Assembly: GCF_051903065.1 (NCBI RefSeq)
Contig: NZ_CP178438.1
Length of the DNA: 64,000 nt
Reading direction: 5' to 3' (one strand)
Source: Escherichia coli
GTDB taxonomy: Bacteria > Pseudomonadota > Gammaproteobacteria > Enterobacterales > Enterobacteriaceae
In this document: positions 33,531-33,627 of the stretch, in pieces
Position numbering within the stretch: the stretch's first letter is position 1
Layout: each line of letters opens with the position of its first letter
The notes under the pieces: model-generated
Database searches by the model: none
Told to the model about the DNA's origin: nothing
What the model saw: only the letters and a program-made list of their open reading frames with translations
Position numbers and translations under genes: made by a program

Positions 33531-33627
33531 CGCCCCTCACCCTAACCCTCTCCCCAAAGGGGCGAGGGGACCGATGGTGCACGGGGTGATTTTCTCCCTC
33601 TCCCTGTGGGAGAGGGCCGGGATGAGG
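33531..33627. repeat. two GC-rich palindromic hairpin elements between convergent yjdP and phnP
   Basis: ccctctcccc-aaa-ggggcgaggg (33546-33568) and ccctctccc-tgt-gggagaggg (33596-33616); a related copy occurs at 60985-61016. Confidence 0.6.

What the first reader, a model, noticed from the sequence alone, without database searches (positions are those of the whole stretch)
33531..33627. Pair of GC-rich palindromic elements between convergent yjdP and phnP
Two hairpins (ccctctcccc-aaa-ggggcgaggg and ccctctccc-tgt-gggagaggg) fill the 143 bp gap and are distinct from REP. They may be bidirectional terminators at the island boundary and belong to a dispersed family, since a near-copy is upstream of melR. 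I cannot name the family from memory.
Basis: seen in the sequence. Interest (0 to 1): 0.4.

Follow-up and report, generated by a model that had tools for sequence, protein, structure and literature searches.

The report
Known BoxC repeat pair, not terminators
The two GC-rich hairpins between yjdP and phnP are an inverted pair of BoxC repeats, a dispersed E. coli family known since 1992 and already catalogued at this locus in K-12; they lack terminator features and mark a spot that differs between strains.

Summary
The 143-bp yjdP-phnP gap holds both hairpins at the stated positions, and a degenerate copy lies upstream of melR.

It is also called PIT (potential intrastrand triplex) or TMECO (Bergler 1992; Hoyne & Maher 2000 and 2002; Holder 2015, PMC4666352). 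Each hairpin is two blocks of a three-block unit, CCCTCNCCC-N3-6-GGGNGAGGG-N3-GGGNGAGGG.
- Unit A (loop TTA) is on the minus strand at 33533-33568.
- Unit B (loop CCG, one mismatch) is on the plus strand at 33596-33628.
- A-plus-B inverted pairs are the published pattern, and the K-12 yjdP-phnP copy is TMECO no. 22.

A profile built from the 23 published K-12 copies finds both units (E = 3e-12 and 2e-5). E. coli genomes carry a median of 17 copies, almost all chromosomal.

The terminator reading is not supported. No hairpin is followed by a T/U tract. Published assays found no terminator or promoter activity. Many strains have lost part or all of the element here.

The locus is a rearrangement hotspot with at least ten length alleles (27-158 bp). 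The window's allele is rare, about 22 of 5,426 genomes. Its core lies in the opposite orientation to the common K-12-type allele.

The family is already known, so interest is low.

The parts
33510..33652 (.). yjdP-phnP intergenic region (143 bp) holding the BoxC pair
   Evidence: ORF coordinates. 100% identical to 19 complete E. coli genomes, where the flanking genes are annotated yjdP and phnP.
33533..33568 (-). BoxC/TMECO unit A (type A 'mm', loop 2 = TTA). Minus strand reads CCCTCGCCC-CTTTG-GGGAGAGGG-TTA-GGGTGAGGG-G. On the plus strand the blocks are 33534-42, 33546-54 and 33560-68.
   Evidence: Exact match to the published consensus. nhmmer with a profile of the 23 published MG1655 copies: E = 3.2e-12, full length.
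33569..33595 (.). Linker between the 5' ends of the two units (gACCGAT...TTTTCT). The ACCGAT and TTTTCT ends are conserved in composites at other loci; the middle is variable and is 12-13 nt shorter here.
   Evidence: Alignments with composites from the lldD-trmL, flgJ-flgK and flgG-flgH intergenic regions.
33596..33629 (+). BoxC/TMECO unit B (type B, loop 2 = CCG): CCCTCTCCC-TGT-GGGAGAGGG-CCG-GGATGAGGG-C, with one mismatch in block 3 (GGA for GGG).
   Evidence: 1 mismatch; E = 2.2e-5. Differs at one position (that mismatch) from published TMECO 1 and 4.
33629..33641 (+). Conserved 3' extension of unit B (CATCAGCGCGCAC), part of the longer BoxC unit
   Evidence: The same 13-mer, with at most one substitution, follows block 3 of type-B units at the flgJ-flgK and flgG-flgH loci of other strains.
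60984..61013 (-). Degenerate BoxC remnant (blocks 1-2 only, plus the TTTTC flank) in the melR-melA intergenic region
   Evidence: Sequence. nhmmer E = 9.8e-4 over profile positions 1-24 of 35.

Best explanation
The gap holds an inverted pair of BoxC repeats (also called PIT elements or TMECO): one type-A unit on the minus strand and one type-B unit on the plus strand, with their 5' ends facing each other across a 27-bp linker. Each unit has three 9-nt homopyrimidine or homopurine blocks. Block 3 can fold back on the purine arm to form an intrastrand triplex in single-stranded DNA. The two units together can also extrude as a long imperfect cruciform or hairpin.

I think it most likely has no dedicated role in expressing yjdP or phnP. 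It behaves as a structure-prone, multicopy chromosomal repeat. Its main consequence is local instability: deletions between its directly repeated blocks, loss of the central palindrome, and inversion or replacement of the core through its inverted arms. That makes this intergenic region hypervariable between strains.

Shown: identity, family membership, copy number, absence of terminator features, and the allele series. Taken from the literature: triplex formation in vitro, and no promoter or terminator activity. Inferred: that the structures cause the rearrangements through replication slippage or template switching.
For: Family identity:
- Unit A matches the published consensus exactly and unit B has one mismatch.
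- A profile of the 23 published K-12 copies detects both units.
- The A(TTA)+B(CCG) opposite-strand pairing is the rule reported for all five K-12 pairs.
- K-12's own yjdP-phnP copy is TMECO 22 at 4,314,285-4,314,320, inside the 4,314,198-4,314,343 gap.

Dispersal: median 17 places per genome, with 84,041 chromosomal against 52 plasmid places.

Not a terminator.

Instability at this locus:
- Intergenic alleles of 158, 146, 143, 95, 91, 74-76, 42, 34 and 27 bp all lie between conserved yjdP and phnP ends.
- Their breakpoints fall at the repeated blocks. Examples: a 12-bp loss of cggCCCTCTCCC in K-12, loss of the whole central palindrome in W46, and single-block remnants in NT1W22, MMC-J-0066 and 042.
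- The core of the window allele aligns to the reverse complement of the CE2050 and K-12 alleles (78% against 66% forward), while the outer flanks align directly.
- Holder et al. found TMECO loci significantly more rearranged than control intergenic sites, and described the 'palindrome effect' deletions.
Against: - The link between structure and rearrangement is correlative. Holder et al. found no triplex in vivo by DMS footprinting.
- Stable RNA hairpins would form on both convergent transcripts: the perfect 9-bp GC-rich stem, or a long inter-unit duplex. The whole region folds at -73 to -74 kcal/mol, z = -1.8 and -3.1. A REP-like role in protecting mRNA 3' ends has not been excluded for this locus.
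- The block sequences are exactly conserved in Burkholderiales, Methylomirabilota and other Gammaproteobacteria. That hints at sequence-specific recognition by some factor, which a purely neutral model does not explain.
Confidence: 0.75

Rival explanations
1. Bidirectional transcription terminator, or 3'-end protective hairpins, for the convergent yjdP and phn operon transcripts (the first reader's idea; by analogy with the known effect of REP on mRNA stability).
For: The pair lies between convergent genes, 24 nt from each stop codon. It contains a strong GC-rich stem-loop, and the region folds well as RNA on the minus strand (z = -3.06).
Against: - No T/U tract follows any stem, and the scanner finds no terminator-like site in the gap.
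- Published assays found no terminator or promoter activity for PIT elements (Hoyne & Maher 2002, as reported).
- Family members show no positional bias and are more often upstream than downstream of ORFs.
- The element is reduced to one block or absent in many E. coli lineages, for example the 27-bp gap in strain 4/4.
Confidence: 0.12
2. The A-linker-B composite, with its GTGCGCGCT.../...AGCGCGCAC ends, is a discrete MITE-like or BIME-like mosaic element. It moves or is copied between loci, and the window's allele arose by insertion or gene conversion from another copy rather than by in-situ inversion.
For: - The same composite, with conserved ACCGAT and TTTTCT linker ends and a CATCAGCGCGCAC tail, occurs at lldD-trmL (K-12) and in Flag-2 flgJ-flgK and flgG-flgH gaps. 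It occurs twice in tandem in strain R32_14_1F.
- The window's composite is slightly closer to the flgJ-flgK copy (84%) than to the inverted allele at its own locus (78%).
- Its B unit (loop TGT) matches B units elsewhere, not the B unit (loop CATTG) of the CE2050 allele.
Against: - No target-site duplication could be recognised.
- There is no association with plasmids (52 of 84,093 places).
- No transposase is known, and no multicopy protein family stood out in a crude, unannotated ORF clustering of BoxC-rich Mitsuaria loci.
- Holder et al. found most copies at fixed, homologous loci across 56 strains.
Confidence: 0.2
3. Binding site for a DNA- or RNA-binding protein (as BIMEs bind gyrase and IHF), with the block sequence conserved for recognition.
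For: The blocks CCCTCTCCC, GGGAGAGGG and GGGTGAGGG are identical in distant phyla, while the loops vary.
Against: No binding protein has been reported in the literature searched. The same conservation is also what triplex-forming constraints, or descent from a shared source, would produce.
Confidence: 0.08

Closest known systems
BoxC / PIT elements / TMECO (Bergler et al. 1992; Hoyne et al. 2000; Hoyne & Maher 2002; Holder et al. 2015, PMC4666352)
   Same: Three-block consensus, loop-2 types A (TTA) and B (CCG), A+B pairing on opposite strands, intergenic chromosomal location, about 17-23 copies per genome, and strain-to-strain variability. The K-12 copy at this very locus is catalogued as TMECO 22.
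   Different: - K-12 has a single complete unit (A, plus strand) with a truncated B. The window has both units complete, with the core in the opposite orientation and a shorter linker. This allele occurs in only about 22 of 5,426 complete genomes.
- Unit B has a G-to-A change in block 3.
- In the text I searched, Holder et al. describe deletions at paired sites but no inversions.
REP / BIME elements of enterobacteria
   Same: Short GC-rich palindromic intergenic repeats. Units come in two types that alternate in orientation with characteristic linkers, and they are often found between convergent genes.
   Different: The sequences are unrelated: no REP core occurs in the gap, whereas true BIMEs occur elsewhere in the window. 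REPs have documented roles (mRNA stabilisation, gyrase and IHF binding) and a cognate RAYT transposase. BoxC has none known.
Rho-independent (intrinsic) terminators
   Same: GC-rich stem-loops downstream of stop codons.
   Different: No U tract on either strand, and no terminator activity in published assays.

Membership tests
BoxC / PIT / TMECO | Consensus 5'-CCCTCNCCC-N3-6-GGGNGAGGG-N3-GGGNGAGGG-3' (Holder 2015) | tested here: met
   Unit A (minus strand, 33534-33568) matches exactly. Unit B (33596-33628) has 1 mismatch.
BoxC / PIT / TMECO | Sequence similarity to the 23 catalogued MG1655 copies | tested here: met
   nhmmer profile built from Table 1 of PMC4666352: E = 3.2e-12 (A), 2.2e-5 (B) and 9.8e-4 (partial melR copy).
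BoxC / PIT / TMECO | Loop 2 is TTA (type A) or CCG (type B); close pairs are one A and one B on opposite strands | tested here: met
   A has TTA (plus strand TAA at 33543-45) and B has CCG (33617-19), on opposite strands. The rule is stated.
BoxC / PIT / TMECO | Intergenic, chromosomal, multicopy and dispersed; not on plasmids or phages | tested here: met
   Intergenic location. Median 17 places per genome in 5,425 of 5,426 genomes, with 52 of 84,093 places on plasmids. Phage records were not searched.
BoxC / PIT / TMECO | Orthologous locus already catalogued | tested here: met
   TMECO 22 at 4,314,285-4,314,320 lies in the MG1655 yjdP-phnP gap, 4,314,198-4,314,343.
BoxC / PIT / TMECO | The G-rich strand forms an intrastrand triplex in vitro | not testable with these tools
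   Shown by CD and NMR for the consensus oligonucleotides by Holder et al.. ViennaRNA models only Watson-Crick hairpins.
Intrinsic terminator | GC-rich stem-loop immediately followed by a T/U tract | tested here: not met
   No terminator-like site between 33510 and 33652 on either strand; flanks read directly.
Intrinsic terminator | Transcripts end at the element | not testable with these tools
   No transcriptome data available here. The literature reports no terminator activity for PIT elements.
REP / BIME | REP core GCC(G/T)GATGCG(G/A)CG palindrome | tested here: not met
   55 hits in the window at up to 2 mismatches, none within 33510-33652.
MITE | Terminal inverted repeats plus target-site duplication, with presence/absence polymorphism showing clean empty sites | tested here: inconclusive
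   Inverted arms are present (21 nt, 81%). No TSD was recognised. The shorter alleles look like internal deletions, not clean empty sites.

The most novel reading that the evidence does not exclude
BoxC units may be organised, like BIMEs, into a discrete mosaic element of about 130 bp: A' - ACCGAT - linker - TTTTCT - B - CATCAGCGCGCAC. This element could be copied between loci and could flip in situ through its ~45-bp inverted arms. On that reading the yjdP-phnP gap is a natural inversion polymorphism. The exact conservation of the three blocks across phyla would then reflect recognition by an as-yet-unidentified protein, a counterpart of the RAYT transposase for REPs.
Probability: 0.2. Interest if true: 0.4.

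Novelty: already known. Interest (0 to 1): 0.15.

Why it matters
For annotation, these hairpins should be labelled BoxC/PIT repeats and not predicted terminators. The gap should be treated as a hypervariable, assembly-sensitive site.

The biological role and the means of spread of BoxC have been unresolved since 1992. The allele series assembled here covers complete pair, inverted pair, stepwise deletions and an empty site, all between two conserved genes. It is a compact natural example of how such structure-prone repeats decay and rearrange. It adds one small observation I did not find in the text of Holder et al. that I searched: opposite core orientations at one locus.

None of this changes what is known about the family.

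Tried and rejected
- Rfam scan of 33000-34200 at E up to 10: only noise hits to eukaryotic miRNA and snoRNA models.
- Pfam on yjdP and on the two spurious ORFs that read through the repeat: no families.
- My first fixed-gap pattern missed the real copies and returned a weak hairpin at 2786-2807. This turned out to be an ordinary stem next to a BIME and not a family member.
- I looked downstream of fabI (envM) in K-12 for the original BoxC and found none there. The catalogued copy, TMECO 9, is upstream of fabI.
- Search for a mobilising gene: ORFs of at least 100 aa from 120 loci returned by the genome-contig scan were clustered. Only clusters that I did not annotate appeared, presumed to be ordinary paralogous families or long spurious ORFs of a GC-rich genome. 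No gene stood out as bracketed by inverted BoxC copies. This was a crude test and does not exclude one.
- Simple in-situ inversion as the sole origin of the window's allele: not accepted outright. The B unit and the 4 nt after block 3 differ from the inverted allele and match copies at other loci.

Full report
**What is in the sequence.** The window is E. coli. The 143-bp stretch is 100% identical to 19 complete genomes, in which the neighbours are annotated yjdP and phnP. yjdP ends at 33509 and phnP, on the minus strand, ends at 33653. CCCTCTCCCC-AAA-GGGGCGAGGG is at 33546-33568, and CCCTCTCCC-TGT-GGGAGAGGG is at 33596-33616. The motif never occurs in shuffled sequence (0 of 100).

Each hairpin is only two-thirds of a longer unit. 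A third 9-nt block sits three bases outside each one: CCCTCACCC at 33534-42 and GGATGAGGG at 33620-28. The two units are inverted copies of each other, with 21-nt outer arms that are 81% complementary.

**Naming the family.** A literature search led to Holder et al. 2015 (NAR 43:10126, PMC4666352). They describe the same motif under three historical names:
- BoxC (Bergler 1992);
- PIT, for potential intrastrand triplex elements (Hoyne et al. 2000; Hoyne & Maher 2002);
- TMECO, with consensus CCCTCNCCC-N3-6-GGGNGAGGG-N3-GGGNGAGGG.

Read on the minus strand, unit A is CCCTCGCCC-CTTTG-GGGAGAGGG-TTA-GGGTGAGGG-G. This is an exact match and is their 'type A mm'. Unit B on the plus strand is CCCTCTCCC-TGT-GGGAGAGGG-CCG-GGATGAGGG-C, 'type B' with one mismatch.

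I built an nhmmer profile from the 23 K-12 copies in their Table 1 and scanned the window. It found unit A at E = 3.2e-12, unit B at E = 2.2e-5, and a partial copy in the melR-melA gap (60989-61012) at E = 9.8e-4. Nothing else was significant.

The paper states that in K-12 all five close pairs combine one A and one B on opposite strands, which is the arrangement here. Their TMECO 22 (4,314,285-4,314,320) lies inside the K-12 yjdP-phnP gap. The orthologous locus is therefore already catalogued.

**Dispersal.** A 44-nt query covering unit A finds a median of 17 places per genome (range 1-31) in 5,425 of 5,426 complete E. coli genomes. Of these places, 84,041 are chromosomal and 52 are on plasmids. 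The element is unrelated to REP. A REP-core search picks out the window's real BIMEs, including an array at 45108-45658, and finds nothing in this gap. Rfam has no model for it.

**Terminator hypothesis.**
- The consensus scanner finds no terminator-like site in the gap on either strand.
- Direct reading shows no T/U run after any of the four possible stems.
- Holder et al. report that Hoyne & Maher 2002 found no promoter or terminator activity and no effect on RNA polymerase.
- K-12 copies are more often upstream than downstream of ORFs, with no preferred distance.
- The element is dispensable at this locus, as shown below.

The RNA would nevertheless fold strongly, at -73 to -74 kcal/mol for the 151-nt region, with z = -1.8 (plus) and -3.1 (minus). 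A REP-like protective effect on 3' ends is therefore not formally excluded. I give it about 0.12.

**The locus across E. coli.** A 501-bp query spanning both gene ends, sampled evenly down the ranking of 5,439 records, showed discrete length classes. I fetched one representative of each and marked the blocks.

| Strain(s) | Gap (bp) | What remains |
|---|---|---|
| CE2050 | 158 | complete pair, B on minus strand at left, A on plus strand at right |
| K-12, TW01221 | 146 | same, minus 12 bp (cggCCCTCTCCC) of B |
| window | 143 | complete pair, A on minus strand at left, B on plus strand at right |
| W46 | 95 | whole central palindrome lost |
| 4621 | 91 | one block, plus a tandem triplication of a 25-bp piece of the phnP end |
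| Res13, O157:H7 | 74-76 | two blocks of A |
| NT1W22 | 42 | one block |
| MMC-J-0066, 042 | 34 | one block |
| 4/4 | 27 | none |

By rows in the even sample:
- The K-12-type class is about half of genomes. Separately, 3,088 of 5,426 genomes hold at least 80% of the K-12 gap.
- The empty class is roughly 18%.
- The one-block classes are roughly 13-15%.

The window's allele is rare. Only 22 genomes match it over its full length at 99% identity or better. The other hits with at least 80% coverage that I examined are composites at other loci. Meanwhile yjdP and phnP are 97% and 98% identical to K-12. This fits Holder's finding that TMECO sites are far more rearranged than control intergenic sites, and their 'palindrome effect' deletions.

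**Orientation.** Aligned directly, the window and K-12 agree in the outer flanks but not in the core. Aligned to K-12's reverse complement, about 80 nt of the core match almost perfectly. Measured from outer block to outer block, the window is 78% identical to the reverse complement of the CE2050 allele and 66% identical to its forward strand. The core is therefore in the opposite orientation in the two allele classes.

I cannot say whether this arose by in-situ inversion through the inverted arms or by replacement from another copy. The window's B unit (loop TGT, tail CATC) matches B units at other loci rather than CE2050's B (loop CATTG). The whole composite is 84% identical to one in the Flag-2 flgJ-flgK gap of other strains. 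A word search of Holder et al. for 'inversion' matched only the title of a cited paper.

**A larger unit.** Composites at lldD-trmL (K-12), flgJ-flgK and flgG-flgH share one layout: [GTGCGCGCT-N4]-A'-ACCGAT-variable linker-TTTTCT-B-CATCAGCGCGCAC. Strain R32_14_1F carries two in tandem. This BIME-like mosaic organisation probably corresponds to the longer '56-bp BoxC' of the older literature. That correspondence is my inference.

**Beyond E. coli.** It returned about 100 exact copies in the Mitsuaria chitosanitabida loci, 13 in a Methylomirabilota MAG and 3 in Candidatus Contendobacter. The three blocks were identical and the loops different. Wide distribution is already reported by Holder et al., in more than 260 genomes. 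A crude search for a recurrent gene associated with these copies found nothing convincing.

**Island boundary.** Relative to K-12, homology breaks within the first ~30 nt of yjdP. Upstream, the window has a hybrid sensor kinase and a sugar ABC cluster where K-12 has rpiB and als. The boundary is about 330 bp from the BoxC pair, not at it.

**Verdict.** The family is BoxC/PIT/TMECO and this locus is already catalogued. The terminator interpretation is not supported. The most likely behaviour is that of a structure-prone chromosomal repeat with no demonstrated expression function, which makes this gap a rearrangement hotspot. The novelty category is 'already known'. The only small additions are the allele series and the opposite-orientation allele.

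Noticed in passing
window 60984-61013 (melR-melA intergenic region): Degenerate two-block BoxC remnant with the TTTTC 5' flank, about 75-100 bp upstream of the melR start codon. It is not in the published K-12 list, because the third block is missing.
   Followed up: partly
window 33112-33210: Homology with K-12 breaks inside the first ~30 nt of yjdP (the signal-peptide codons differ). Upstream, the window has a hybrid sensor kinase/response regulator and a sugar ABC/aldolase/kinase cluster where K-12 has rpiB-alsRBACEK.
   Followed up: partly
L018 (E. coli R32_14_1F, flgH-flgG gap) 230-480; L015-L017 (flgJ-flgK gaps): Complete BoxC A-linker-B composites sit inside the Flag-2 lateral-flagellar cluster of other strains, twice in tandem in R32_14_1F. 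They have conserved linker ends and a CATCAGCGCGCAC tail, which suggests a BIME-like mosaic unit of about 130 bp.
   Followed up: partly
L027-L098 (Mitsuaria chitosanitabida), L019-L026 (Methylomirabilota MAG), L034-L036 (Ca. Contendobacter): The exact three-block consensus is massively expanded in a betaproteobacterium and present in a distant phylum. The blocks are identical to those of E. coli and the loops differ; many copies are in inverted pairs 30-300 bp apart.
   Followed up: partly
L009 (E. coli 4621) about 215-290; L012 (E. coli 042): The 3' end of phnP carries tandem copies of a 25-bp segment (catcacgccaccccaatctccatcc, three copies) in strain 4621. In strain 042 ccaccccaatctc is duplicated and phnP is annotated 12 nt longer.
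   Followed up: no
window 45108-45658: A large BIME array of about a dozen alternating REP units with a period of about 100 bp. Smaller BIMEs lie at 2839-2937, 13368-13512, 37279-37308 and 42568-42610.
   Followed up: no
window 2786-2807: A weak stem-loop (cccgctccc-tta-tgggagaagg) immediately before a BIME. It superficially resembles BoxC but is not significant against the family profile (E = 0.43).
   Followed up: yes
L011 (E. coli NT1W22): yjdP is annotated as a pseudogene (internal stop) in a strain whose gap retains only one BoxC block.
   Followed up: no
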